The notes under the pieces are model-generated. The model did not search any database. It was not told the DNA's origin and saw only the letters and a list, made by a program, of their open reading frames with translations. A DNA stretch of 20,000 bases from an uncultured virus (IMG/VR IMGVR_UViG_3300028592_000009) (taxonomy: Duplodnaviria > Heunggongvirae > Uroviricota > Caudoviricetes): the IMG/VR virus record IMGVR_UViG_3300028592_000009. One strand, written 5' to 3'. Made by a program: the position numbers and the translations under genes. Below, one piece after another: positions 721-11,073 of the stretch (the first letter of the stretch is position 1; every line of letters begins with the position of its first letter).

Positions 721-1127
721 CAGCCCTCCCAGACGATCTGGCTGCGTCGGAGTCCTGCGTTCAGCAGGACCTCCCAACACTTGTGGCAGGGCTCACGAGT
801 TGTGTACAGCACACACGCCCTCGTGATCGGGTTGCCACGCTTGAAGAACTTGTTGATCGCGTTGATCTCCGCGTGGACGGCGGTGCACCGGCCAACCCCG
901 TCGAACCGAGCGCCGTGGGGAAGCTGATCGGTCGACATCTGGCCGCGCGGGCAGCCGCCGTCCTCGCAGTTGGTCTCGCCGGAGCGAGGACCGTTGTAGC
1001 CGACGAAGACCTCCTGGTTGTCCACCACGAGGACTGCACCGACTTGATCACGGAGGCAGGAGCTCCGGGTCGCCACCGAAGCAGCAACCCCGAGCCACAC
1101 CTCTGGCCAACTGGCCCTTCTAGACAT
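720..1127 (-). CDS. dCMP (deoxycytidylate) deaminase
   Basis: RSSCLRDQVGAVLV...GYNG...CTAVHAEINAI...LYTTREPCHKC carries the HAE and PCxxC zinc motifs. Likely start ATG 1125-1127. Confidence 0.92.
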   Translation of the reverse strand: MSRRASWPEVWLGVAASVATRSSCLRDQVGAVLVVDNQEVFVGYNGPRSGETNCEDGGCPRGQMSTDQLPHGARFDGVGRCTAVHAEINAINKFFKRGNPITRACVLYTTREPCHKCWEVLLNAGLRRSQIVWEG

Positions 1128-2360: not shown

Positions 2361-3322
2361 CGGATCTCCTTCCGCGTGTCGCCGACACGGGTCTGGCCGA
2401 GGTCGGCGTTCCGGCCGTCGTTGCGACCCCGGGAGTAGGACTCGCCGATGATCCGCTGCTGGTAGCTGCGACCCTCCTTGATGTTGTTGTCCTCCTTGTA
2501 CTTGTCGTACGCGTCCTGGACGAGCGCCCCCTTGTCGCGGAGGGCGAGCTCGGCGCCGGTCGTCGCCTTGACCTGAGCGTCGCGGTGCTCCTGGAGCTTG
2601 TACAGACGGATCGAGACTTCGGTGCGGAAGCCCTCGGCGTAGGACCGCTGGAAGGTGACCGGCGTCTGGACCGCGCGGTACTCCAGACCCATGAGCTTGC
2701 ACCAGCGCTTGCAGGCGCGGATGAGGCGGCCGCCGTCCTTCTTCTTCTCGTGCCACTCGACCCACGGCCACGGCTCACCGATGGAGTCCTTGGGGTCGAG
2801 GTTGTGCTCCTCCATCCAGTGCATCCGGGCGATGTTCATCTGCGAGCAGGTCCGCTCCCAGTTGATCCCCGCCTCGTGCAGGATGTAGACGTTCTCGTCG
2901 TACGAGCGCTGCATGTCGACCTTCGGGTCGATCTTGCGCAGCAGCTGGAGACGGAGGCTCGTGTAGACCATCTCGGCGAACTTGATGTCCGAGGGCAGAC
3001 CGATGAAGTCGCCGAAGCCGTTGCTGTACCCGTGGAAGGCGCAGTCGTAGTGCTGCGCGACGCGGATGCAGAGGTTGTACAGGCTCGTCGCGATCGGGCT
3101 GTCCATACCGGCGAACTGGAAGCGAACGCGCTCCGGCATCTCGACCGGCTTGGCCTTGTCCTTGTTCGCGGCGGCGAGGATGGCCGCGTCGATCTGGTAC
3201 TTGGCCATCAGCTCGTCGGCCTTGGCCATGAAGTTGTTGGCGGCCTCCTCCTGCCCGCTCTCGCGGTGGGACTCGGCGGAGTTGAGCAGCGCCTGGATCT
3301 TGTTGATCATGGCGTCAGACAT
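2357..3322 (-). CDS. DUF2786-domain phage protein
   Basis: INKIQALLNSAES...EEAANNFMAKADELMAKYQID matches the DUF2786 pattern; C-terminal RSYAEGF and YSRGRNDGRNADL are typical of the family. Confidence 0.85.
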   Translation of the reverse strand: MSDAMINKIQALLNSAESHRESGQEEAANNFMAKADELMAKYQIDAAILAAANKDKAKPVEMPERVRFQFAGMDSPIATSLYNLCIRVAQHYDCAFHGYSNGFGDFIGLPSDIKFAEMVYTSLRLQLLRKIDPKVDMQRSYDENVYILHEAGINWERTCSQMNIARMHWMEEHNLDPKDSIGEPWPWVEWHEKKKDGGRLIRACKRWCKLMGLEYRAVQTPVTFQRSYAEGFRTEVSIRLYKLQEHRDAQVKATTGAELALRDKGALVQDAYDKYKEDNNIKEGRSYQQRIIGESYSRGRNDGRNADLGQTRVGDTRKEIR

Positions 3323-3334
3323 GGGGTGCTCCCT

Positions 3335-3391
3335 GGTCTCCTCAGCATGGGTACCTTACCCATGGACGTGACTGGCTGTCACGTTTCGACC
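3335..3391 (-). ncRNA. type II hammerhead ribozyme HHR1
   Basis: Minus strand: A-GGTC GAAA CGTGAC-AGCCA-GTCACG TC^ CATGGG-TAAGGTA-CCCATG CTGAGGA GACC, then AGGGAG..ATG. Predicted cut 3' of 3365. Confidence 0.95.
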
Positions 3392-3400
3392 TGGACGGGA

Positions 3401-3625
3401 TCAGTCGGTGCCGAGCACGATGTGCTCGTTGTTCGGGACGTCGCGGAGGGCGGCCTCGCGGATCGCCTCGTCCGACTTGTGCTTGTGCAGCATGTGCGCC
3501 AGCTTCTCGAGCTGCTCGGCGGAGATGTTGATCGCGTCCTGTCCGTCGTCGAGGAGGACGCCCTCCCATCCCTCGGACACGGTCGCCCAGAGGTAGTCGT
3601 CGAGCTGGACTCGTTCGTTCGCCAT
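3401..3625 (-). CDS. hypothetical protein (74 aa)
   Basis: MANERVQLDDYLW...; SD AGGAG. Confidence 0.7.
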   Translation of the reverse strand: MANERVQLDDYLWATVSEGWEGVLLDDGQDAINISAEQLEKLAHMLHKHKSDEAIREAALRDVPNNEHIVLGTD

Positions 3626-3633
3626 GGTCGCTC

Positions 3634-3762
3634 CTAGCAGCCCTGGTTGAGGATGAAGATGATGCCGAGCAGGACGATGATCAGGAGCACGATGCATCCG
3701 AACATCAGCTCGATGGCCATCTTGAGCATGTCGCCGTAGGACATGTTGGTGAAGCGCTTCAC
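3634..3762 (-). CDS. single-TM micropeptide (42 aa)
   Basis: GTG start overlapping the upstream TGA; SD GGAGG; LMFGCIVLLIIVLLGIIFIL. Confidence 0.6.
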   Translation of the reverse strand: MKRFTNMSYGDMLKMAIELMFGCIVLLIIVLLGIIFILNQGC

Positions 3763-4049
3763 GAGATCGCCTCCCACAGCGGACGGGGCGCGTAGGGGCT
3801 GATCCTGCCATAGCCGTTCACCTGGTCCGTGGCCAGCCACACGGCCTTGCGCGCCTCGTCGGCGAGCTCTCCGTCGATGTAGTCGGCGAGCTCCTCACCC
3901 GAGATGACGCCGAGCACGACCCCGGTGAGCGGGTAGGTCGGCTGCATCCCGACGAGCACCTCGACCTCGGAGACGTCGACACCGGCGTCCTCCAGGTCCA
4001 GCCGGATCTCTCCGAGCTTCTCGATGAGCTCCGTGAGCTTCAGCTTCAT
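3759..4049 (-). CDS. hypothetical acidic protein (96 aa)
   Basis: SD GGAGG directly after HHR2; good codon usage. Confidence 0.8.
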   Translation of the reverse strand: MKLKLTELIEKLGEIRLDLEDAGVDVSEVEVLVGMQPTYPLTGVVLGVISGEELADYIDGELADEARKAVWLATDQVNGYGRISPYAPRPLWEAIS

Positions 4050-4060
4050 GTTCCCTCCAC

Positions 4061-4123
4061 GATCTCGTCAGCACCCGTGCCATACGGGCGGACGCCACGG
4101 CTGGATGTCGCAGCGTTTCGATC
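4061..4123 (-). ncRNA. type II hammerhead ribozyme HHR2
   Basis: A-GATC GAAA CGCTGCG-ACATCCAGC-CGTGGCG TC^ CGCCCG-TATGGCA-CGGGTG CTGACGA GATC, then GTGGAGG..ATG. Predicted cut 3' of 4091. Confidence 0.93.
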
Positions 4124-4135
4124 TGGCTGTGGTGG

Positions 4136-4261
4136 TTACCAGTGGAGCCCGAAGGCTCGCAGGACCAGCCCGATGCCGACCCCGAGCAGGACCCCGAGGA
4201 TGGCGCAGGTGGCGATGTTCCACGGCGTGTCCGTGAAGAACGAGTTGAGCTTGCGAAGCAT
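4136..4261 (-). CDS. single-TM micropeptide (41 aa)
   Basis: MLRKLNSFFTDTPWNIATCAILGVLLGVGIGLVLRAFGLHW; GGAGG upstream. Confidence 0.6.
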   Translation of the reverse strand: MLRKLNSFFTDTPWNIATCAILGVLLGVGIGLVLRAFGLHW

Positions 4262-4358
4262 GAGCCCTCCCGAGGCCCTAGGCGGCCGTCTACGGGCCGC
4301 GCGTTGCCGGGTGAGCCCCTTCGCCCACCCGGCTTGCGTTCGGCGCTTACGTTGGCGC

Positions 4359-4901
4359 CTACGGCGTCTCGATGAACCCGGCCTCGTCGGCGTCACCATT
4401 CTCGACCGCCGCGAGCTGCGCCTCGGAGACGGCCGGATAGAGGCCAGCCGGGTGCTCGGTGAAGTTGCTGGCGCTGGAGCAGCCGATGTACTGGAGCTCG
4501 CACTCGATCACGCGGAGCTCGCGGTTGCGGATCTCCGTGAGGACGTTGTACCGAGCCTTGAGCTGCGCCTGGAGCCAGCTCGGGTCGATCCAGGCCGAGG
4601 CCCGCATCTTCTCGTTCGCCTTGAGCTCCAGGTACGCGAGCCGAACGAACTCGTCGACGTTGCCGAACTGCTCCAGGGTCGGCTCCAGACCGATCTCCAT
4701 GTCGGTCCGGTTGCCGAAGGACTCCTTGAGGAGGTACTCGACCTCGTCGTTCTGCTCCTGCGCCCGGAGGCGGTCGATGACCTCGTTGGCCCGCTTCTCA
4801 GCGTTGAAGCCGAGGATGTCGACGAAGACCTCGATCGTCTCCGCCGTGTCGAACTCCAGGTTGGTCTTCTCGATGAGAAGGATCCGGATACCCATAACCA
4901 C
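4359..4901 (-). CDS. hypothetical acidic protein (about 180 aa)
   Basis: AAGGAG after HHR3, then GTG (4899-4901) or ATG (4893-4895). Confidence 0.78.
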   Translation of the reverse strand: MVMGIRILLIEKTNLEFDTAETIEVFVDILGFNAEKRANEVIDRLRAQEQNDEVEYLLKESFGNRTDMEIGLEPTLEQFGNVDEFVRLAYLELKANEKMRASAWIDPSWLQAQLKARYNVLTEIRNRELRVIECELQYIGCSSASNFTEHPAGLYPAVSEAQLAAVENGDADEAGFIETP

Positions 4902-4913
4902 GCTCACTCCTTG

Positions 4914-4966
4914 AGAGCTCCTCAGCACCGGCTCTTACCGGCGGACGCCCGAAGGCGTTTCGCTCT
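4914..4966 (-). ncRNA. type II hammerhead ribozyme HHR3
   Basis: A-GAGC GAAA CGCC-TTCG-GGCG TC^ CGCCGG-TAAGAG-CCGGTG CTGAGGA GCTC. Stem III capped by a cUUCGg tetraloop. Predicted cut 3' of 4944. Confidence 0.95.
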
Positions 4967-4975
4967 TGCCTGGCG

Positions 4976-5015
4976 CCCGGTGCAGGGGTTTGGGTGGTCG
5001 CCACCCTGCACCGGG
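4976..5015. terminator. 12-bp GC hairpin after the 161-aa gene (attenuator or processing hairpin)
   Basis: CCCGGTGCAGGG(N16)CCCTGCACCGGG; no U-tract. Confidence 0.45.
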
Positions 5016-5029
5016 GCCGTCATGGGGTG

Positions 5030-5515
5030 TTACTCAGCGGCCTTGGCGGCCGTGCGGCGGGTGCGCCGGACTCGCGGCTTGGCCACGGGCGCCTCCTCCT
5101 TGGCCTCCTCGACCGGAGCGGTCTCGGCCACGGCCTCCTCGACCTTCTCCGCGTCGTCCGACAGCGCCTGGTCGGCCTCGCTGTCGTACTCCTCGGGCTT
5201 GGTCTCCTCGGCGACCGGCGCGGCCTCCTCGCCCTTGAGCTTGGCGAGCTCGGCCTCCAGCTTGGCGAGCTTGCGGGCCTTGGCCTCCTCGGCCTTCTTG
5301 GCCGCCGCGACCTTGCGGTCGGCGAGGTTCGCCTGGTTCTCCGGGCTGGCCTGGAAGTCCAGGCGGAAGGACACCGCGAGCTGGACGGTCTTGAGGTCGG
5401 GCTTGACCCCCGTCTTCTCCTCGATCCAGGCGGCGAACGCCTTGTGGAGGTCGGTGGGCTCGGCCTTGGCGCGCTCGGCGAAGGTCTTCTTCTTGGAGGC
5501 GGTGTTCTCGGTCAT
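5030..5515 (-). CDS. Ala/Lys/Glu-rich protein, paralog of 10513-11073
   Basis: N-terminal about 80 aa are clearly homologous to the 186-aa ORF; basic C-tail KPRVRRTRRTAAK. Confidence 0.85.
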   Translation of the reverse strand: MTENTASKKKTFAERAKAEPTDLHKAFAAWIEEKTGVKPDLKTVQLAVSFRLDFQASPENQANLADRKVAAAKKAEEAKARKLAKLEAELAKLKGEEAAPVAEETKPEEYDSEADQALSDDAEKVEEAVAETAPVEEAKEEAPVAKPRVRRTRRTAAKAAE

Positions 5516-5527
5516 GGTAACTCCTAG

Positions 5528-5598
5528 GGACTCCTCAGCACCGGCACTCTACCGGCGGACCATCGGGGCGGCCTCTCGACCGCCCCTAGGTTTCGTCC
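5528..5598 (-). ncRNA. type II hammerhead ribozyme HHR4
   Basis: A-GGAC GAAA CC-TA-GGGGCGGTC-GAGA-GGCCGCCCC-GAT-GG TC^ CGCCGG-TAGAGTG-CCGGTG CTGAGGA GTCC, then CTAGGAG..ATG. Predicted cut 3' of 5558. Confidence 0.92.
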
Positions 5599-5612
5599 TG
5601 TGTACTGCTTCT

Positions 5613-5847
5613 CTCGCACCCGCCGGGACCTACCGGCTGCTTGTGCGAGGCGCGTCGACCAGTCGATTAGCCGAGCTACGGGTTTTGTGGAGGTCCCGTT
5701 CCTGTCAGAAGTCAGCGGCCCTTGCGGGGCGCGATCTCAGCCGTCTTCCTGGGCTGTCCTACTCGGGCTCGCGGTCTTCGGGCTGCGTCTCGACCGTCGG
5801 CTGGATGCGCCGTCCCGGGAGTTCCTCGCTTGCCCTGCTCGCTTACG
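5613..5847 (-). ncRNA. structured leader RNA, copy A (unassigned family)
   Basis: No credible ORF. Shares sequence blocks and covarying hairpins with 9334-9737. Lies between a promoter and HHR4. Confidence 0.75.
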
Positions 5848-5978
5848 AGTAGAACTATGCGCCATTCCTCCGGGGAAGGCAAACACCCATCTACCTGCGC
5901 ATTCATCGCGTTTGCCCTGGTAGGGGGCTTGCGAAGATTCTATAATTTCTTTCAAGAAATTACATATGCGCAGGTAGA
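5843..5978. repeat. duplicated promoter/operator module, copy A
   Basis: Aligns without gaps to 9733-9868 (offset 3890). Contains three CWGGTAG boxes and an AT-rich tract. Confidence 0.85.
5854..5882 (-). promoter_or_regulatory. promoter driving the HHR4-HHR1 operon
   Basis: TTGCCT-N17-CATAGT; hexamers identical to those at 9744-9772. Confidence 0.75.
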
Positions 5979-6039
5979 CATGAGTGTCGACCATCTACGG
6001 CGATTCACCGCGCCTCAGCGCGAATCGGGCGAAACCGCC

Positions 6040-6468
6040 CTACAGCGCCGTGAGCTTCCACAGCGAGCTGTCCTCCAGGCGCACAATCTGGGAGCCGTCC
6101 GAGGCCTTGCCGACGGGCTCGTACAGCTCCCAGGTGCCCGGCTTCTCCCAGGGGGCGCGCGGCTTGGCACGGGGCGGCACGGAGGCCGGGGTGCCGTCGC
6201 TGTGCGTGATGGGCTCATTCAGGTCCGCCAGGGGCACACCGGCCACGGCGGGCTGAGCCTTGGGCGCCGCACTGTTGACGCGCCAGACGTGTCCCTTGGA
6301 GATCACGTCGATGTCCATCTTGTTCTGAGCGATGATGCGGCGCATGACAGCGCGGACCTGCTCGTCGCGGAGGCCGGTCTCCTTGCAGGCCTCGTTGATG
6401 ATGATGGTCTGGCCGATGCGCGCGACCAGGTACTTGGTCATGGTCGACTGCACGTTCATGTTACCCAT
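6040..6468 (-). CDS. putative winged-HTH DNA-binding protein (142 aa)
   Basis: IIINEACKETGLRDEQVRAVMRRI...VISKGHVWRV fits an HTH plus wing; SD AGGAGG after HHR5. Confidence 0.7.
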   Translation of the reverse strand: MGNMNVQSTMTKYLVARIGQTIIINEACKETGLRDEQVRAVMRRIIAQNKMDIDVISKGHVWRVNSAAPKAQPAVAGVPLADLNEPITHSDGTPASVPPRAKPRAPWEKPGTWELYEPVGKASDGSQIVRLEDSSLWKLTAL

Positions 6469-6484
6469 GTTGCAGAGCCCTCCT

Positions 6485-6546
6485 AGACTCGTCAGCGGCC
6501 GTCTACGGCCGGACCGCACCCCGGTGACCCGGGGCCGGTTTCGTCC
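6485..6546 (-). ncRNA. type II hammerhead ribozyme HHR5
   Basis: A-GGAC GAAA CCG-GCCCCGG-GTCA-CCGGGGT-G-CGG TC^ CGGCCG-TAGA-CGGCCG CTGACGA GTCT, then AGGAGG. Predicted cut 3' of 6512. Confidence 0.93.
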
Positions 6547-6555
6547 TGTGGAGGA

Positions 6556-7188
6556 TCAGACGTAGGACCAGGAGCGCACGACCGACATGGTGCCATGGCT
6601 GGCGACCCGCTGCCTGGCCGCCTTGAGCAGCTCGTCCTGGTCGGGCTCTCCGAGCACCTTGACGCGCTGCTGGCTGATCTTGGCCGGATACTTGAGCCCG
6701 TGCTGCTTGTCCATCTGCACGACGGCGAGCCTGTCGTAGCGGTTGAACTCGCTGTCCTCGAACCGGAGAATCACGCCCTCCATGCCCACGTACCGGCCAC
6801 GGGTGGTGAGCGACTTCACGCGCTTGCCGATGCCGGGGGTGGACCAGTTGTCCGTGGCCGACTTCACGAGCATGCGGATCGTCCACTCGTCGGCCGCCCT
6901 GAGCACGTCGATCGTGGCGTCGGCGGAGGCGTTGTGGTGGTACGTCCAGCCACGGGTCGTCGCGTACTGGATCGTCTTGACGCGCTCCTCCTCGGCGTCC
7001 CACACGACCGCGTAGAAGTCGCTGTCGTCGTGCATGTTGCGCTCGTAGATGCCGATCACGGCTCCGAGATAGGTCGTCTCGTGGGCCTCAAGGTGCAGTT
7101 TGTTGAGCGCCTCGTCGGAGCTGTACTGGTTGGGGTCGTACCCCTGCTCCTTGCCGTGCCAGGGGTTGGTGCAAGTGATGATGGGCAT
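6556..7188 (-). CDS. hypothetical protein (210 aa), possible KOW/SH3-like C-terminal domain
   Basis: Start MPIITCTNPW after GAGGAGG; GIGKRVKSLTTRGRYVGMEGVI resembles a KOW motif. Confidence 0.8.
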   Translation of the reverse strand: MPIITCTNPWHGKEQGYDPNQYSSDEALNKLHLEAHETTYLGAVIGIYERNMHDDSDFYAVVWDAEEERVKTIQYATTRGWTYHHNASADATIDVLRAADEWTIRMLVKSATDNWSTPGIGKRVKSLTTRGRYVGMEGVILRFEDSEFNRYDRLAVVQMDKQHGLKYPAKISQQRVKVLGEPDQDELLKAARQRVASHGTMSVVRSWSYV

Positions 7189-7201
7189 GATTCCTCCTCG
7201 G

Positions 7202-7254
7202 GAGCTCTTCAGCAGGACCGTGCAGCCCTGGACGCTCACATGAGCGTTTCGCTC
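7202..7254 (-). ncRNA. type II hammerhead ribozyme HHR6
   Basis: A-GAGC GAAA CGCTC-ATGT-GAGCG TC^ CAGGGC-TGCACG-GTCCTG CTGAAGA GCTC. Predicted cut 3' of 7231. Confidence 0.94.
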
Positions 7255-7259
7255 TGGGT

Positions 7260-7433
7260 GGCGACCTCCGCACCCCTCCATATGAGTGCAGAGGCCGCCT
7301 GCGGGCCATTTCGAACAAGGCTCGTGCCCGGGCACAACCCGGTCGGACGATCGTGCTCCTAGGAGTGCACTAGCGAAAGCCGTGCTGCACGAGCCAGGTC
7401 TTACGGATCCCCGCGTTCCGGCCGTCGCCGGAA
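7260..7433 (-). ncRNA. candidate structured RNA upstream of HHR6
   Basis: Non-coding gap with a 16-bp hairpin (7260-7299), a 9-bp helix (7319-7327/7387-7395) and a 7-bp hairpin (7416-7433). Confidence 0.45.
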
Positions 7434-7436
7434 GTC

Positions 7437-7586
7437 TTATGCCAGCTCCAGGCCTCTGTCGAAGCCGCACTGGGCATGGGCGACGATGCTGATGGCGCCC
7501 GAACGATCGGCCGTCCTGAACTCAGCCATCTCGTCGTCCGGCCCCTCGTCGCAGAGCTCGCAGTCGTCGTTGAACTCGGGCAGCAT
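7437..7586 (-). CDS. small CxxC...HxxC protein (49 aa)
   Basis: MLPEFNDDCELCDEG...VAHAQCGFDRGLELA; TGATG coupling to the upstream gene; below the ORF-track cutoff. Confidence 0.65.
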   Translation of the reverse strand: MLPEFNDDCELCDEGPDDEMAEFRTADRSGAISIVAHAQCGFDRGLELA

Positions 7587-7843
7587 CAGAGGGCCTTCCG
7601 AACGTTGATGGAGAGGACGACCGGGTTGGTCCAGATGTAGTTGCCGGAGCCGTCGGTGTTGCTCTGGTGGACGGTCGTCCTCCGGTCGATGCGGTATGCC
7701 ATCACGAACCGCGCGGCCATCGTTATGTCCGGGAGCTCGATGTCGAGCGTGCCGGTTCGATCCATGCCGTGGACCGTGGCCTTGAAGGCGGCCACGTTGC
7801 TCGTCAGCAGACCCTGCAGAACGGTGTCGATCTCGATGGTCAT
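7586..7843 (-). CDS. hypothetical protein (85 aa)
   Basis: SD GGAGG directly after HHR7. Confidence 0.78.
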   Translation of the reverse strand: MTIEIDTVLQGLLTSNVAAFKATVHGMDRTGTLDIELPDITMAARFVMAYRIDRRTTVHQSNTDGSGNYIWTNPVVLSINVRKAL

Positions 7844-7852
7844 GATTCCTCC

Positions 7853-7909
7853 GGTCTCTTCAGCAGGCGCACCTTACGCCTGGACGTCGCTGGCTGCGAC
7901 GTTTCGACC
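7853..7909 (-). ncRNA. type II hammerhead ribozyme HHR7
   Basis: A-GGTC GAAA CGTCGC-AGCCA-GCGACG TC^ CAGGCG-TAAGGTG-CGCCTG CTGAAGA GACC, then GGAGG. Predicted cut 3' of 7883. Confidence 0.95.
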
Positions 7910-7973
7910 TGGTTGGAGAAGTGGTCTTGCCGGCATGCCCATAAGCAGGCTAGCCAGACGGATAGGGCGGCCA

Positions 7974-8069
7974 TCAGGCCGCGCCCCAGAAGATCGCCAG
8001 GCTGACGGCGACAACGCCGATCACGAACAGGATGCACCCGAGGGCCATCTGGTCTCCGCTAACACCCAT
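7974..8069 (-). CDS. single-TM micropeptide (31 aa)
   Basis: MGVSGDQMALGCILFVIGVVAVSLAIFWGAA; TGATG-coupled. Confidence 0.6.
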   Translation of the reverse strand: MGVSGDQMALGCILFVIGVVAVSLAIFWGAA

Positions 8070-8188
8070 CAGAAGAACTCCACCTTCGAAACGATGAACA
8101 TGAGCACGGACATGAGGACCATCCCGACCGCCATCAGCGCGAGCAGGAACAGGAAGCAGCCGCGCGCTTCCTCGTAGCCGTCGGCCAT
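8069..8188 (-). CDS. single-TM micropeptide (39 aa)
   Basis: MADGYEEARGCFLFLLALMAVGMVLMSVLMFIVSKVEFF; TGATG-coupled. Confidence 0.65.
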   Translation of the reverse strand: MADGYEEARGCFLFLLALMAVGMVLMSVLMFIVSKVEFF

Positions 8189-8307
8189 CAGAACACCAGC
8201 CCCATCAGGATGGTGAAGCCGACACCCAAGGCGAACCCCAGTCCGCCGAGACCGACAAGTATCTTGAACAGGTCGCTCCTGTCGCGATCGCTGGAACCCA
8301 TCAGCAT
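8188..8307 (-). CDS. single-TM micropeptide (39 aa, Gly-rich helix)
   Basis: MLMGSSDRDRSDLFKILVGLGGLGFALGVGFTILMGLVF; TGATG-coupled. Confidence 0.62.
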   Translation of the reverse strand: MLMGSSDRDRSDLFKILVGLGGLGFALGVGFTILMGLVF

Positions 8308-8435
8308 CAGTGCTTCCTGCCCTTCTTGTCCTTGCCGGTGTTCTTGATGAGGACGTAGACGATCCAGCAGATCACGGCGATGAAGCCGAAGAACAGCAGG
8401 GTGTCCACGATGAGGATGAACAGTTCAGCGGGCAT
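8307..8435 (-). CDS. single-TM micropeptide (42 aa, basic C-tail)
   Basis: MPAELFILIVDTLLFFGFIAVICWIVYVLIKNTGKDKKGRKH; SD AAGGAG after HHR8. Confidence 0.72.
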   Translation of the reverse strand: MPAELFILIVDTLLFFGFIAVICWIVYVLIKNTGKDKKGRKH

Positions 8436-8446
8436 GCACTCTCCTT

Positions 8447-8529
8447 GAGCTCGTCAGCACGGCCACCTAGCCGTGGACGAGCCCCGGGCGAAGGGGTGTT
8501 GGGGAGTCCGCCCGGGGCTCGTTTCGCTC
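8447..8529 (-). ncRNA. type II hammerhead ribozyme HHR8
   Basis: A-GAGC GAAA CGAGCCCCGGGCG-(18-nt C-rich loop)-CGCCCGGGGCTCG TC^ CACGGC-TAGGTG-GCCGTG CTGACGA GCTC. Predicted cut 3' of 8476. Confidence 0.94.
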
Positions 8530-8533
8530 TGTC

Positions 8534-8842
8534 CTACTTGTCCGTCGGGACGTTGACGACCGCGTCGTCCGAGCCCCAGCCCGCGTTCGGGTCCGAGCCC
8601 TGGTCCTGCGGGATGTTGACGACCTCGCTGTCGTTGCCGAGGTACTGGTTCTCGTCGCCCATGTTGGCGATCTCCTTCTTGATCTGGTTCCAGATCGTCT
8701 CGTCGTCGAGGTGCGGGAACGTCTTCTTGGCGATGACGAAGACCGACTGAATCTCGATGTCTCCCTCAGCCCAGCAGGGCATGCTGCCCGGGCCCGGCAC
8801 CTTCTGCTTGGTCAGCTCCTGGATGTCGAGCTCGACCTTCAT
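8534..8842 (-). CDS. hypothetical acidic protein (102 aa)
   Basis: SD AGGAGG after HHR9; internal repeat DSEVVNIP/DDAVVNVP. Confidence 0.78.
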   Translation of the reverse strand: MKVELDIQELTKQKVPGPGSMPCWAEGDIEIQSVFVIAKKTFPHLDDETIWNQIKKEIANMGDENQYLGNDSEVVNIPQDQGSDPNAGWGSDDAVVNVPTDK

Positions 8843-8852
8843 GCTTCCTCCT

Positions 8853-8911
8853 AGGACTCATCAGCACGGCTTCCTTAGCCGTGGACCCGGCTGGCTACCG
8901 GGTTTCGTCCT
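8853..8911 (-). ncRNA. type II hammerhead ribozyme HHR9
   Basis: (TG)A-GGAC GAAA CCCGG-TAGCCAG-CCGGG TC^ CACGGC-TAAGGAA-GCCGTG CTGATGA GTCC. Abuts the upstream stop codon. Predicted cut 3' of 8884. Confidence 0.96.
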
Positions 8912-9237
8912 CAGTTGAACTGCGCCTCGACCAGCGTCCTGTGTCGGCGGATGGCCTGGCGTACCGCGTCGTACTTCGCCCCGTGCCGGAACGCCACGGC
9001 CTGCATGGCGCCTCTGACGCATCCGAGCTTGACCCAGTCCTCGTACAGCCTGGCGTCCGACACCCTGAGCGGAATGTACTCGCGCTGGACGATGTCGTAC
9101 CGAGCCTTGAGCCGCCTGCGGATGCAGGTTTCGGTCACTCCGTACTGGAGCGCCGTCTGCGAGACGTTCCGACCGAGCAGCTCCCACATCGTGTGGATGC
9201 GCTCGTTGTCCTGGGGCAGCTGGCTGGTTGCCGGCAT
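8911..9237 (-). CDS. putative double-HTH DNA-binding protein (108 aa)
   Basis: NVSQTALQYGVTETCIRRRLK and AMQAVAFRHGAKYDAVRQAIRR; SD GGAGG after HHR10. Confidence 0.72.
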   Translation of the reverse strand: MPATSQLPQDNERIHTMWELLGRNVSQTALQYGVTETCIRRRLKARYDIVQREYIPLRVSDARLYEDWVKLGCVRGAMQAVAFRHGAKYDAVRQAIRRHRTLVEAQFN

Positions 9238-9248
9238 GCTCACCTCCG

Positions 9249-9322
9249 AGACTCTTCAGCAGCGCCGTTCAGCGCCGGACAGCCCGCCCCCGGGTCATGG
9301 CCAAGGGCGGACTGTTTCGTCT
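9249..9322 (-). ncRNA. type II hammerhead ribozyme HHR10
   Basis: A-AGAC GAAA CAGTCCGCCCTTG...CGGGGGCGGGCTG TC^ CGGCGC-TGAACG-GCGCTG CTGAAGA GTCT. Predicted cut 3' of 9278. Confidence 0.93.
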
Positions 9323-9333
9323 TGTTGTGTTGC

Positions 9334-9737
9334 CTGCACCCCTGTGGGACCTACCACAGCGCTTGTGCAGTTCGCAGCTAGCTTTGCACCTTGCCTACCA
9401 ACCTGATGTGTCCACGTAGAAGCGGGTTCCGTGTCTCCCTCGCTTGTACGTGGCCGTCCCAGGCCAGTCGCGTGCTGTCAGCCTCTCGGCTGTCGCCTGC
9501 CACTACCGGTTGTGTGGGGGTCCGGTTCCCGTCTCGAGTCAGCCGCCTGCTGGACACCTTCTCCAGAGGGGGCGATTAAGGCCGTCTCCCTTGGCCCGCC
9601 CGGGTTGTCGTCACCGGGCTCCGAGTTCGACCGCGAGGGCCAGCTTGGGGGATGGGTTCCCGGTTCACCCGTAGGTCGCTTCCGGTCCGCTCTCCCCGCC
9701 TCAGAGGGGGTCGGACCCTCTGCGACTCGGTGTTACG
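9334..9737 (-). ncRNA. structured leader RNA, copy B (unassigned family)
   Basis: About 400 nt without a credible ORF; homologous to 5613-5847 with compensatory changes and insertions. Confidence 0.75.
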
Positions 9738-9876
9738 AGGAGAACTATGCCCCAGTCGGGCTGAGAAGGCAAACAGCCTCCTACCTGGTCATTCATCGGA
9801 AAAGCCCTGGTAGGAGGCTTGCGAACAATCTTGAAGTTTTTTGAAGAAATCATGAAAGCCCTGGTAGGAGGCTTGC
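9733..9876. repeat. duplicated promoter/operator module, copy B, with an internal 22-bp direct repeat
   Basis: AAAGCCCTGGTAGGAGGCTTGC at 9801-9822 and 9855-9876; inverted partial copy AGCCTCCTACC at 9775-9785. Confidence 0.85.
9744..9772 (-). promoter_or_regulatory. promoter driving the HHR10-HHR5 operon
   Basis: TTGCCT-N17-CATAGT. Confidence 0.75.
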
Positions 9877-10003
9877 CGGCATGCCGAAGCCGTAGGCGCC
9901 CCGTAGGCGGCTCGCGAGCGCTCGCGAGGGCGCGGGTATCCGGGCGCGCCCGTTCGCCCCGTAGGCGGCCACGTAGCGGCTCTGCCGGGGCCGGAACGCA
10001 GAA

Positions 10004-10032
10004 CAGCCCCGCTCCCTCTCGGGGCGGGGCTG
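10004..10032 (-). terminator. intrinsic terminator
   Basis: 12-bp GC hairpin just after the stop at 10046, followed by TTCT on the minus strand. Confidence 0.7.
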
Positions 10033-10045
10033 CTGGGGCTGGATG

Positions 10046-10417
10046 CTAGTCGACGAACTCGCTCAGGATCGCGTAGACCTCGACCTTGGCCTTGCGGGTC
10101 GTGGCCGCCTCGGCGTTGACCCAGGGGCTCGTCGACTGGACGCCGTAGTCCTCGATCAGCTCGTCGCGCATCCGGCGGACCCGGTAGACCAGCTGCTTGG
10201 ACTGCTCGACCGCGTCGGCCTTGTACTTCTCGGCGACCAGGTACAGGCGGGTCCAGGCGTCCAGGACAGCCTCGGCCTTGGCCACGTCCTCCATCCGGCT
10301 GACCGGGACCCTGGTCGGCTCGGCGATCGCCTTGGTCAGCGCGTCGTACGCCTTGTTGAGGTTGGTGTTGGCCTTGGCGGCCTCAGCGATCACGGCGGCG
10401 GCGAGGGACTGGTACAC
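10046..10417 (-). CDS. hypothetical helical protein (123 aa)
   Basis: GTG start after AACAACAACAAGGAG. Confidence 0.8.
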   Translation of the reverse strand: MYQSLAAAVIAEAAKANTNLNKAYDALTKAIAEPTRVPVSRMEDVAKAEAVLDAWTRLYLVAEKYKADAVEQSKQLVYRVRRMRDELIEDYGVQSTSPWVNAEAATTRKAKVEVYAILSEFVD

Positions 10418-10512: not shown

Positions 10513-11073
10513 CTAGTTGTCGAGCTTGGGGCAGCAGGGCTTGGCGTCGTAGGCCATGTAGTTGTCCTCCAGGCTCGACTCACCCGAGTCGATCATGTCG
10601 GCGTAGATGATGTGGGTGACCTCGGTGTGGCTGCTGACCGTGACCGTCTCCTGGCTGTCGCCCTTGCGGCGGCTGCGCTTAATGTCGGCGCAACCCGCCT
10701 TGTGGACCTCCGGCTCGCCGTTGCCCTTGTACAGGATGGTGAGCTTGACCTTCTCGGCGGGCTCGACCGGGGCGGCCTCCTCGACCTTGGGCGACTCCTC
10801 CTTGCCGGCACGCAGCTTGGCCAGCTCGGCCTCCAGGCGCGCCTTCTTGCGCTCGGCCGCACCCTTGCGCTTCGCCTCGGCCTTGGCCTTGCGCTCGGCC
10901 AGGGAGGCCTGGTTCTCGGGGGAGGCCTGGAAGTCCATGCGGAGGGTGGTGACCAGCTGGACGGTCTTCAGGTCGACCTCGACCCCGGTCTTCTCGGTGA
11001 TCCAGGCGGCGAACGCCTTGTGGAGGTCGGTGGGGGCGGCGGCGGCGCGCTCGGCGAAGGACTGCTTGGCCAT
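10513..11073 (-). CDS. hypothetical protein (186 aa), paralog of 5030-5515, with C-terminal H..C..C..C domain
   Basis: Shared N-terminal domain; VHKAGCADI...KPCCPKL. Confidence 0.85.
   Translation of the reverse strand: MAKQSFAERAAAAPTDLHKAFAAWITEKTGVEVDLKTVQLVTTLRMDFQASPENQASLAERKAKAEAKRKGAAERKKARLEAELAKLRAGKEESPKVEEAAPVEPAEKVKLTILYKGNGEPEVHKAGCADIKRSRRKGDSQETVTVSSHTEVTHIIYADMIDSGESSLEDNYMAYDAKPCCPKLDN

What the first reader, a model, noticed from the sequence alone, without database searches (positions are those of the whole stretch)
5613..9737. Two paralogous, unassigned structured leader RNAs, each bounded by a promoter and a hammerhead
Seen on the minus strand, copy A 5613-5847 versus copy B 9334-9737, blocks in the same order. 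(1) CGGTCG, able to pair with a distant CGACTG in both. (2) Hairpin AGCC-CAGGAAGAC-GGCT versus GGCC-AAGGGAGAC-GGCC. (3) ATCGC, a variable hairpin, then GCTGACT-N3-GACRGGA. (4) Hairpin ACGGG-ACCTCCACAAAA-CCCGT versus ACCGG-ACCCCCACACAA-CCGGT. (5) Terminal hairpin CTCGCAC-AAGCA-GCCGG-TAGGTC-CCGGC-GG-GTGCGAG versus CTGCAC-AAGCG-CTGTGG-TAGGTC-CCACAG-GG-GTGCAG. Stems covary while loops are conserved, and the UAGGUC loop can pair with GACC in block 4. Inference: a folded RNA released by HHR4 or HHR10 as a discrete RNA of about 290 or 460 nt. It might be a put-like antiterminator, a protein decoy, a riboswitch or a new ribozyme. I cannot match it to a family I know.
Basis: partly seen in the sequence, partly recalled or inferred. 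Interest (0 to 1): 0.88.

Follow-up and report, generated by a model that had tools for sequence, protein, structure and literature searches.

The report
New structured phage leader RNA family
Two related, folded, non-coding RNAs sit at the very start of the two ribozyme-punctuated early operons of a soil Streptomyces phage; they belong to an undescribed RNA family whose job is unknown but probably concerns control of early transcription.

Summary
On the minus strand, two paralogous non-coding leaders (about 290 nt, ~5848-5558; about 460 nt, ~9738-9278) run from a conserved promoter-like element to a type II hammerhead. Both have counterparts at both sites in 9 of 9 related BN-cluster Streptomyces phages, in 15 IMG/VR contigs and in 19 metagenome contigs. 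None was found in bacterial genomes with two core patterns. No Rfam family matches them.

Covariation supports a real RNA fold. On 29 distinct sequences, 26 of 31 modelled pairs show compensatory changes (13.9 +/- 1.9 in shuffles, 0 of 500 reach it). The universal core is a hairpin, a GGAGAC-type joiner and an H-type pseudoknot with an A-rich loop.

The promoter-like element occurs exactly twice per BN genome, always with a leader. All 17 Rfam hammerhead matches in five phage genomes lie downstream of a leader.

Function is inferred only. My best guess (about 0.35-0.4) is a put-like, promoter-proximal RNA that modifies RNA polymerase. The close rival is a released trans-acting early ncRNA, like the L5/D29 Pleft RNA. 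There is no expression data.

The parts
5877..5926 (-). Copy A regulatory DNA: inverted repeat around an AT-rich tract (about 5926-5888) and -35-like TTGCCT (5882-5877)
   Evidence: Read. The same layout occurs at both sites in 9 relatives. TTGCY-N17-RCATRRT occurs exactly twice in each of 5 BN genomes, both times at leader sites. The consensus scan does not call it a promoter.
5854..5859 (-). Copy A -10-like CATAGT; the start of the RNA is inferred a few bases downstream (about 5848)
   Evidence: No transcription start data.
5767..5850 (-). Copy A 5' domain (nested helices P1a-f, including the local helix that uses CGGTCG 5796-5791)
   Evidence: Model R2 matches window 5757-5850 at 74.1 bits, E 1.2e-19. 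On 15 distinct sequences, 95.5% of cells are paired. Four pairs have changes on both sides, against 1.8 +/- 0.6 in shuffles (3 of 500) and 0 in slid controls.
5738..5756 (-).
   Evidence: Helix 1: 5 of 5 pairs show changes on both sides across 29 distinct sequences, 95.7% paired.
5715..5732 (-).
   Evidence: the hairpin differs in length and sequence between subtypes and keeps its pairing.
5678..5706 (-). Copy A GAC joiner plus H-type pseudoknot. Stem 1: 5703-5701 with 5693-5691. Stem 2: 5699-5695 with 5682-5678. A-rich loop 3: 5690-5683.
   Evidence: A pseudoknot with both stems of 3 bp or more can be drawn in 34 of 34 unique leaders. Covariation test. Coordinates.
5652..5676 (-). Copy A hairpin with conserved loop holding CGAC (CGACTG 5665-5660); specific to the short subtype
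   Evidence: Folds. The stem differs at 3 pairs between the window and Yara and keeps pairing.
5613..5649 (-).
   Evidence: UAGGUC is present in 10 of 34 unique leaders.
5527..5599 (-). Type II hammerhead-like unit after copy A; cleavage predicted after GUC 5560-5558
   Evidence: Core motifs and stems by regex. No Rfam match at E <= 10.
9767..9818 (-). Copy B regulatory DNA: 10-bp inverted repeat (9818-9809 / 9785-9776) and -35-like TTGCCT (9772-9767)
9744..9749 (-). Copy B -10-like CATAGT; the start of the RNA is inferred at about 9738
9598..9740 (-). Copy B 5' domain, a different module from copy A and shared only with Yara copy B; contains CGGTCG 9633-9628
   Evidence: Alignment. Not modelled. 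The structure here comes from single-sequence folding only.
9579..9597 (-). Copy B hairpin P2
9544..9574 (-). Copy B variable hairpin Hb
9505..9533 (-). Copy B joiner plus H-type pseudoknot. Stem 1: 9530-9528 with 9520-9518. Stem 2: 9526-9522 with 9509-9505.
   Evidence: The outer pair of stem 1 is G:C here, A:U in most leaders and U:A in three.
9397..9468 (-). Copy B domain D2: helix P5, internal loop (GGACGG opposite ACACAU), helix P6, and a 16-nt conserved terminal loop at 9440-9425
   Evidence: Model R1 matches window 9398-9493 at 51.5 bits, E 1.7e-14. Helices 4 and 5 have 17 of 19 pairs with changes on both sides.
9334..9370 (-). Copy B terminal hairpin with UAGGUC loop
9248..9323 (-). 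Type II hammerhead-like unit after copy B; cleavage predicted after GUC 9280-9278
   Evidence: No Rfam match at E <= 10.

Best explanation
Shown: the two stretches are paralogous members of an undescribed, modular family of structured non-coding RNAs. This family forms the promoter-proximal leader of the early, hammerhead-punctuated operons of lytic Streptomyces phages of cluster BN and of more distant soil phages. The universal core is hairpin P2, a short variable hairpin, a GGAGAC-type joiner and an H-type pseudoknot with an A-rich third loop. Lineage-specific domains are added 5' and 3' of this core.

Inferred (my odds about 0.35-0.4): the nascent leader folds as soon as it leaves RNA polymerase and acts in cis on the polymerase that made it, like the put RNAs of phage HK022. 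That polymerase would then read through pauses, Rho and hairpin-rich ribozyme sequences across a several-kilobase operon, while the transcript behind it is cut into single-gene mRNAs. Hammerhead cleavage then frees the leader, which may stay bound to the polymerase.
For: Structure:
- Hand-drawn structure on 12 distinct sequences: 11 pairs with changes on both sides against 5.6 +/- 1.4 in shuffles, 0 of 500; slid controls 2 or fewer.
- Model alignments: 24 of 31 pairs and 26 of 31 pairs on 29 distinct sequences, against 13.9 +/- 1.9, 0 of 500; covariation score 0.287 against 0.049 or less when slid.
- 5' domain. Pseudoknot.
- G:U pairs dominate some positions (GU 19 of 28, UG 14 of 18). These would be mismatches on the other strand, so the RNA is read from the minus strand.

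Non-coding:
- No CDS is annotated at either site in 9 of 9 relatives.
- 4 of 34 unique leaders have no ORF at all, and the rest have no shared frame.

Not a known family:
- 0 Rfam matches over the leaders.

Logic of position:
- TTGCY-N17-RCATRRT occurs exactly twice in each of 5 of 5 BN genomes, always directly before a leader.
- Model R1 finds no other copy in these genomes.
- Distant members also sit right behind sigma-70-like boxes.
- The genes that follow differ between lineages, which argues against a gene-specific riboswitch.
- 17 of 17 Hammerhead_II matches in 5 phage genomes lie downstream of a leader on the same strand.
- All 10 hammerhead-like units found on the minus strand of the window lie downstream of the two promoters.

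Precedent:
- HK022 has two paralogous put RNAs just behind its two early promoters. They suppress intrinsic and Rho-dependent termination, and their action does not depend on the tether to the polymerase (PMC9378689, introduction passages read). Ribozyme cleavage therefore does not rule this mechanism out.
Against: - There is no functional or expression evidence of any kind. No RNA run holds the sequence, so the transcription start, abundance and cleavage are unverified.
- The leaders are 4 to 6 times longer than put (about 70 nt, two stem-loops) and share no architecture with it.
- The simple scan finds no intrinsic terminators on the minus strand between 3000 and 10300, so a need for antitermination is not shown.
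- The conserved multi-domain build, with several conserved loops and lineage-specific domains, and a defined 3' end (hammerhead, or a tRNA-like element in L027 and L183) fit a released, trans-acting RNA at least as well.
- The link between leader and hammerheads could be shared descent of early operons rather than functional coupling.
- The model alignments used for the largest counts are fitted to the model's structure and lean towards it.
Confidence: 0.4

Rival explanations
1. A released, trans-acting early ncRNA for host takeover or counter-defence. It would be the first product made from each early promoter, freed by the hammerhead with a 2',3'-cyclic phosphate end, stable because it is highly structured, and acting by binding a host or phage protein (decoy or scaffold) or an RNA.
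For: - Positional analogue in other actinophages: L5, D29 and StarStuff make very abundant, stable, non-coding RNAs from about 500 bp directly downstream of the early lytic promoter Pleft. These RNAs are toxic to the host and their function is unknown (PMC5712189, passages read).
- A defined 3' end is kept in different ways: a hammerhead in most members, and a covarying tRNA-like element in L027 and L183.
- The build is modular, with conserved loops (16-nt D2 loop, UAGGUC loop).
- A GAGAC motif recurs in loops and joiners: 32 against 12.4 +/- 3.6 in shuffles across 16 representatives, which are not independent.
Against: - Some members (L145, L190) run straight into the first ORF with no processing element seen.
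- The strict one-to-one tie to one promoter type and the strict 5'-terminal place are not required of a trans-acting RNA.
- GAGAC occurs only 1 to 4 times per RNA, far from a CsrB-like sponge.
- Models R1 and R2 find nothing in L5 50300-52297 (all below 6 bits), so the L5 RNA is an analogue and not a relative.
Confidence: 0.3
2. A processing and folding insulator or stability element. The leader would give the first hammerhead a defined, self-contained upstream context and a protected 5' end, with no further function.
For: - The leader always heads hammerhead-punctuated operons.
- An A/C-rich unstructured linker separates the terminal hairpin from the hammerhead in all members that have one.
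Against: - Such a role would not need 250-450 nt with an invariant pseudoknot and conserved loops kept across very divergent phages.
- After cleavage the leader cannot protect the downstream mRNAs.
Confidence: 0.1
3. A ligand-sensing riboswitch or attenuator. The H-type pseudoknot with an A-rich loop would be an aptamer of the preQ1-I or SAM-II topological kind, and the terminal hairpin an expression platform.
For: The pseudoknot topology (short G-C stem, A-rich third loop) is the same as in several small riboswitch aptamers (recalled knowledge, not from a call). The element lies in a 5' leader.
Against: - No Rfam riboswitch family matches, even at E <= 10.
- The downstream genes are small, unrelated proteins of unknown function that differ between lineages.
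- No U-tract terminator follows the terminal hairpin.
- The host is a lytic phage.
Confidence: 0.07
4. Not an RNA feature: a DNA-level regulatory or replication region, or a small protein-coding gene.
For: The upstream part of the duplicated unit is clearly DNA-level (inverted repeats, AT-rich tract). The replication genes lie just upstream (primase at 17076-19871).
Against: - Compensatory changes keep pairing in 26 of 31 modelled pairs.
- Frequent G:U pairs fit one strand only.
- No conserved ORF exists.
- Indels fall in hairpin loops and whole modules.
Confidence: 0.03

Closest known systems
HK022 put RNAs (putL, putR)
   Same: Both are paralogous structured RNA elements in one phage genome, each just downstream of an early promoter, with covarying stems and conserved unpaired bases. 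Put acts in cis on RNA polymerase without a protein, and its action does not need the RNA tether (PMC9378689, passages read).
   Different: Put is about 70 nt with two stem-loops and occurs in a lambdoid coliphage. Here the RNA is 250-460 nt with a pseudoknot core and extra domains, occurs in lytic actinophages, and is followed by self-cleaving ribozymes. No sequence or structural homology was found. Function is untested.
[quoted passage not shown]
   Same: In both cases an actinophage has about 500 bp without conserved ORFs directly downstream of the early lytic promoter near the right genome end, transcribed leftwards. In L5 and D29 the RNA is the most abundant and stable early transcript, and its function is unknown (PMC5712189, passages read).
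   Different: No homology: models R1 and R2 score below 6 bits on L5 50300-52297. No hammerheads are reported there in the passages I read. Expression is shown there and not here.
Type II hammerhead ribozymes in multi-ribozyme polycistronic arrangements (Perreault et al. 2011)
   Same: The units that bound the leaders have the type II layout: stems I and III closed, stem II open, with CUGANGA, GAAA and a GUC site. Multi-hammerhead operons in phage-like contexts are described (PMC3088659, passages read).
   Different: These are the boundary, not the finding itself. The window's copies score below Rfam's threshold (18-26.6 bits against 37) or not at all. Relatives' copies reach 42-57 bits.
Small H-type pseudoknot aptamers (preQ1-I, SAM-II)
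   Same: The core has the same topology: a short G-C-rich stem 1, a hairpin loop pairing downstream, and an A-rich loop 3 (recalled knowledge, not from a call).
   Different: No Rfam match. The core is embedded in a much larger RNA. There is no metabolic gene context.

Membership tests
Any Rfam 15 family (4227 models) | Covariance-model score at or above the curated gathering score | tested here: not met
   There are 0 matches at gathering in the whole window. Nothing credible lies over either leader at E <= 10 in narrow searches. Nothing lies over the leaders of 7 relatives at E <= 1.
HK022 put RNA | Two paralogous copies just downstream of the early promoters | tested here: met
   Exactly two promoter-plus-leader units occur in each of 5 of 5 BN genomes and in the window. 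Two distant, near-complete phages have only one.
HK022 put RNA | About 70 nt folding into two stem-loops | tested here: not met
   The leaders are 239-449 nt, with a pseudoknot and 4 to 8 helices.
HK022 put RNA | Binds the beta-prime zinc-binding domain and suppresses pausing and termination in cis | not testable with these tools
   Needs in vitro transcription or reporter assays.
Hammerhead ribozyme, type II (the bounding units) | Conserved core (CUGANGA, GAAA, cleavage triplet) with stems I and III closed and stem II open | tested here: met
   Ten units match the core pattern on the minus strand, including 5599-5527 and 9323-9248. Stem II covaries among them.
Hammerhead ribozyme, type II (the bounding units) | Rfam RF02276 score of at least 37 bits | tested here: not met
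   The two bounding units get no match at E <= 10. Four other window units score 18-26.6 bits. Leader-bounding units of relatives pass: for example G004 37175-37277 at 42.2 bits and G005 4985-5046 at 43.9 bits.
Hammerhead ribozyme, type II (the bounding units) | Self-cleavage | not testable with these tools
   Needs an in vitro transcription and cleavage assay.
L5/D29 Pleft non-coding RNA | Sequence or structure homology | tested here: not met
   With filters off, R1 and R2 score below 6 bits and E > 0.1 on L5 50300-52297.
L5/D29 Pleft non-coding RNA | Non-coding stretch directly downstream of the early lytic promoter; abundant and stable | tested here: inconclusive
   Position and lack of ORFs are met. 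Abundance and stability are unknown, because no RNA run holds the sequence.
6S / Ms1 RNA (RNA polymerase-binding rods) | Long, irregular hairpin with a central bubble | tested here: not met
   The supported fold is multi-domain with a pseudoknot. No sequence comparison with Ms1 was possible; only passages of PMC9130861 were read.

The most novel reading that the evidence does not exclude
An RNA-only processive antitermination system in actinophages. A pseudoknot-centred leader would load onto host RNA polymerase at the promoter-proximal stage, be cut loose by the first hammerhead, and ride with the polymerase through an operon whose transcript is chopped co-transcriptionally into 5'-OH monocistronic mRNAs. 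It would shield that polymerase from Rho and pausing. This would be the first put-like mechanism outside lambdoid phages, and the first functional coupling of a leader RNA to ribozyme-punctuated operons.
Probability: 0.3. Interest if true: 0.9.

Novelty: new variant of a known kind. Interest (0 to 1): 0.72.

Why it matters
This is a well-supported new family of medium-sized structured RNAs, and there are three reasons to care.

- It gives a defined, testable element at the head of the early operons of cultivable Streptomyces phages (nine named BN-cluster relatives: Yara, Dryad, Wentworth and six others). Covariation already says which helices to mutate.
- It is tied one-to-one to an unusual gene-expression design: operons cut into single-gene mRNAs by type II hammerheads. 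The purpose of that design in phages has been open since the ribozyme arrays were first described.
- If the leader modifies RNA polymerase, it extends RNA-only antitermination beyond HK022. If it is a released RNA, it gives the abundant but unexplained early ncRNAs of actinophages a structurally tractable counterpart.

Tried and rejected
- Expression data. One search for sequencing runs listed 13 soil-metagenome DNA holders and no RNA holder.
- Earlier findings.
- The window's own assembly is not held. The nearest record, G001, was used instead.
- tRNA or tmRNA. None in the window, and none called in L027 or L030.
- E. coli-type promoter scan. 0 promoters and no minus-strand terminators in 3000-10300. 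The promoter reading therefore rests on conservation only.
- Cellular copies. Two core patterns gave 0 hits in one genome for each of 185,579 species. A model search of Streptomyces genomes was not possible, because no prokaryote handle was available to centre it.
- Relation to the L5 Pleft RNA. Rejected.
- Ms1/6S mimicry. Considered, but the fold does not fit and no sequence test was done.
- Anti-Shine-Dalgarno display by the CCUCC in block 4. Dropped, because most of it is paired in pseudoknot stem 1.
- CsrB-like sponge. There are too few GAGAC copies per RNA.
- IMG/VR scans with single 15-16-mers gave mostly chance hits (92, 28 and 14 loci). Only those confirmed by nhmmer were kept.
- The MAFFT alignments A1 and A4 were not structure-consistent, because loop-length shifts were present. 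They were not used for counts.
- Alignment A6 held six weak, probably false matches. It was replaced by A7.
- A first promoter pattern was too strict and was replaced. The pseudoknot pattern misses the window's own subtype, so it says nothing about G001.
- Prior description. Literature searches found no description of these leaders or of hammerheads in Streptomyces phages or actinobacteriophages. The library lacks most subscription journals.

Full report
**What is there**

The window is part of the right arm of a lytic Streptomyces phage from soil. blastn of copy A finds nine GenBank phages (Yara, Dryad, phiRKBJ001, Wentworth, Lizz, PHTowN, ShakeNBake, Rooney, Gibson), each with two places and none annotated. 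These phages form the lytic, siphoviral BN cluster (PMC8852317, whole text read).

All genes in the region are on the minus strand. Reading that strand, each copy has the same order of parts:
- an AT-rich tract flanked by an inverted repeat
- TTGCCT, 17 nt, CATAGT
- a long stretch without a plausible ORF
- an A/C-rich linker
- a type II hammerhead-like unit
- a Shine-Dalgarno sequence and a small ORF

A and B are alike far beyond chance: local score 45 against 20.8 +/- 2.4 in 300 shuffles.

**The family**

The unannotated gaps at both sites in the nine relatives hold homologous leaders of 261-449 nt.

Exact-pattern scans of IMG/VR, filtered with an HMM of the 20 leaders, add 15 viral contigs. 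One of them carries both of the window's leader copies, identical to the window's (contig 3300038441_000952; the same record as G001, which shares 60% of the window's sampled words). A metagenome scan with the pseudoknot pattern gave 19 loci, and 19 of 19 match covariance model R1 at E <= 3.7e-12.

Some members are very divergent (L027, L030, L130, L143, L145, L180, L188, L190). They have different promoters, different flanking domains and different downstream genes.

Two core patterns have 0 matches in one genome for each of 185,579 prokaryote species. As far as these exact patterns see, the family is confined to viral DNA.

I distinguish five subtypes:
- short (window A, Yara A)
- BN site-A type
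- BN site-B type
- window B / Yara B
- the distant group

Modules are shuffled between subtypes and between the two sites.

**It is an RNA, and it is folded**

No Rfam family matches:
- 0 matches at gathering in the window.
- Only sub-threshold hammerheads and noise at E <= 10.
- Only hammerheads in seven relatives' loci.

There is no conserved ORF. Four of 34 unique leaders have none at all, and the longest ORFs elsewhere differ in frame and place.

Covariation results:

| Test | Sequences | Result | Shuffles | Slid controls |
|---|---|---|---|---|
| Hand-drawn structure, BN site-B type plus three distant leaders | 12 distinct | 89.4% of cells paired; 11 pairs changed on both sides | 5.6 +/- 1.4, 0 of 500 | 2 or fewer |
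| Model R1 alignment (built) | 39 matches, 29 distinct | 26 of 31 pairs changed on both sides; covariation score 0.287 | 13.9 +/- 1.9, 0 of 500 | score 0.049 or less |
| Model R2 (5' domain; finds window 5757-5850 at E 1.2e-19) | 15 distinct | 95.5% paired; 4 compensatory pairs | 1.8 +/- 0.6, 3 of 500 | 0 |

An intermediate R1 alignment gave 24 of 31 pairs. The model-made alignments are fitted to the model's structure and lean towards it. The hand test does not have that bias.

Positions dominated by G:U fit only the minus strand.

**The pseudoknot**

The three or four bases before its 5' strand pair with the first bases of its 'loop' to form stem 1. The remaining A-rich bases are loop 3.

Both stems (3 bp or more) can be drawn in 34 of 34 unique leaders. 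The outer pair of stem 1 is A:U in most, U:A in three distinct sequences and G:C in window B. Stem 2 switches C:G to G:C in the short subtype.

On alignment A9 the two stems show 3 pairs with changes on both sides against 0.4 +/- 0.5 (0 of 500) and none when slid. Stem 2 is partly misaligned there, at 73% paired.

This pseudoknot, the joiner in front of it and hairpin P2 are the only parts found in every member. The shortest distant member, L180, is little more than these.

CGGUCG is part of a local helix of the 5' domain: its CGG pairs with CCG, UC is bulged, and the following GAG pairs with CUC. That local helix changes to CCC/GGG and CCGG/CCGG in other subtypes. The proposed partner CGACUG is missing from the BN site-B and distant types, and the pairing shows only wobble-compatible single changes. 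It may still be an alternative or tertiary contact.

For UAGGUC:GACC, 10 of 34 unique leaders carry the loop and 5 of these lack GACC in block 4.

**Boundaries**

TTGCY-N17-RCATRRT occurs exactly twice in each of 5 of 5 complete BN genomes. All ten matches are on the reverse strand at the leader sites, and the reversed control pattern matched once. R1 finds no further copy. Two near-complete distant phages have a single copy.

The consensus scan does not call a promoter (8 of 12 matches), so the promoter is inferred.

The bounding hammerheads have the full type II core, and their 4-bp stem II covaries among the ten units on the window's minus strand. Rfam does not score them. Homologous positions in relatives pass the threshold.

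Predicted products run from about 5848 to 5558 (about 290 nt) and from about 9738 to 9278 (about 460 nt).

**Context that bears on function**

In five phage records, all 17 Hammerhead_II matches (E <= 0.01) lie on the leader's strand and downstream of a leader. There are none elsewhere in 60-84 kb. In the window, all ten hammerhead-like units on the minus strand lie between 9323 and 3334, downstream of the two promoters (only the minus strand was scanned).

Genes behind the leaders are small and of unknown function. The first gene after B has a weak, sub-threshold helix-turn-helix match. A D5-type primase lies upstream at 17076-19871.

The gene that follows the leader differs between lineages. 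In L027 and L183 a covarying tRNA-like element replaces the hammerhead, and in L145 and L190 nothing does.

**Mechanism**

Nothing here measures function. Four facts point to an operon-level role at the RNA level:
- the strict promoter-proximal place
- one leader per promoter of this type
- variable downstream genes
- the tie to ribozyme-cut operons

The closest working model is HK022 put. There, two paralogous RNAs sit behind the two early promoters and act on the polymerase that made them. They suppress intrinsic and Rho-dependent termination and do not depend on the tether (PMC9378689, passages).

I give this about 0.35-0.4. [quoted passage not shown] That RNA is an analogue and not a relative. 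The two readings are not exclusive.

Insulator, riboswitch and DNA-level readings are less likely, for the reasons given under rivals.

**Novelty**

No Rfam match was found. My literature searches found no paper that describes these leaders, or hammerheads in Streptomyces phages or actinobacteriophages. The library is incomplete for subscription journals.

As an RNA family it is new. As a kind, a structured promoter-proximal leader of phage early operons, it has precedents.

Noticed in passing
window 3334-9323, minus strand: Ten type II hammerhead-like units, one in front of almost every small ORF. Cleavage would leave each mRNA starting with the stem I hairpin followed by the Shine-Dalgarno sequence. 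Stem II covaries among them. In five phage genomes, 17 of 17 Rfam hammerhead matches lie downstream of a leader.
   Followed up: partly
L027 about 960-1040 (+) and L183 (minus strand; in the stretch printed, about 210-290 nt past the end of the R1 match at L183 676-768): A tRNA-like element stands where other members have the first hammerhead. It has a T-arm with a UUCGA-type loop, an acceptor-like stem, and a middle arm that covaries between the two contigs. ARAGORN and Rfam do not call it in L027; neither tool was run on L183.
   Followed up: partly
window 9818-9776 and about 5926-5888; further conserved block about 100 nt upstream of each -35: Operator-like inverted repeats flank an AT-rich tract just upstream of both -35 boxes, and a second conserved block with its own short inverted repeat lies further upstream. 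The duplicated unit is therefore regulatory DNA plus promoter plus leader. A further copy of the repeat arm lies at about 9875-9860.
   Followed up: no
window about 10040-10004, minus strand: A G+C-rich hairpin followed by a T-containing tail sits directly upstream of the copy B regulatory region. It is a likely terminator of the preceding (replication-gene) operon. The simple scan did not call it.
   Followed up: no
window 5030-5515 and 10513-11073, minus strand: Two paralogous genes of phrog_20596 (unknown function). One is the first gene after leader A. The other is the last gene before the terminator-like hairpin upstream of promoter B.
   Followed up: no
L001 7764-8015 (Yara gene 88): The annotated CDS overlaps the hammerhead that follows leader B (about 7925-7979), so its start codon is probably set too far upstream.
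   Followed up: no
leaders of all subtypes: GAGAC (often GGAGACA) recurs in the P2 loop, the joiner before the pseudoknot, the D2 terminal loop and a 3' domain. The count is 32 against 12.4 +/- 3.6 in shuffles over 16 representative, non-independent leaders.
   Followed up: partly
helix P6a of domain D2 (BN site-B type; the 130:166 column pair of A2): A C.A mismatch is kept in most BN site-B leaders and becomes C:G or U:A in others. It may be a protonated wobble or a recognition feature.
   Followed up: no
window 7950-7935 and several leader and intergenic places in relatives: The palindrome TGCCGGCA, often preceded by A, recurs in intergenic stretches and in terminal hairpins of some leaders. 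No count against chance was made.
   Followed up: no
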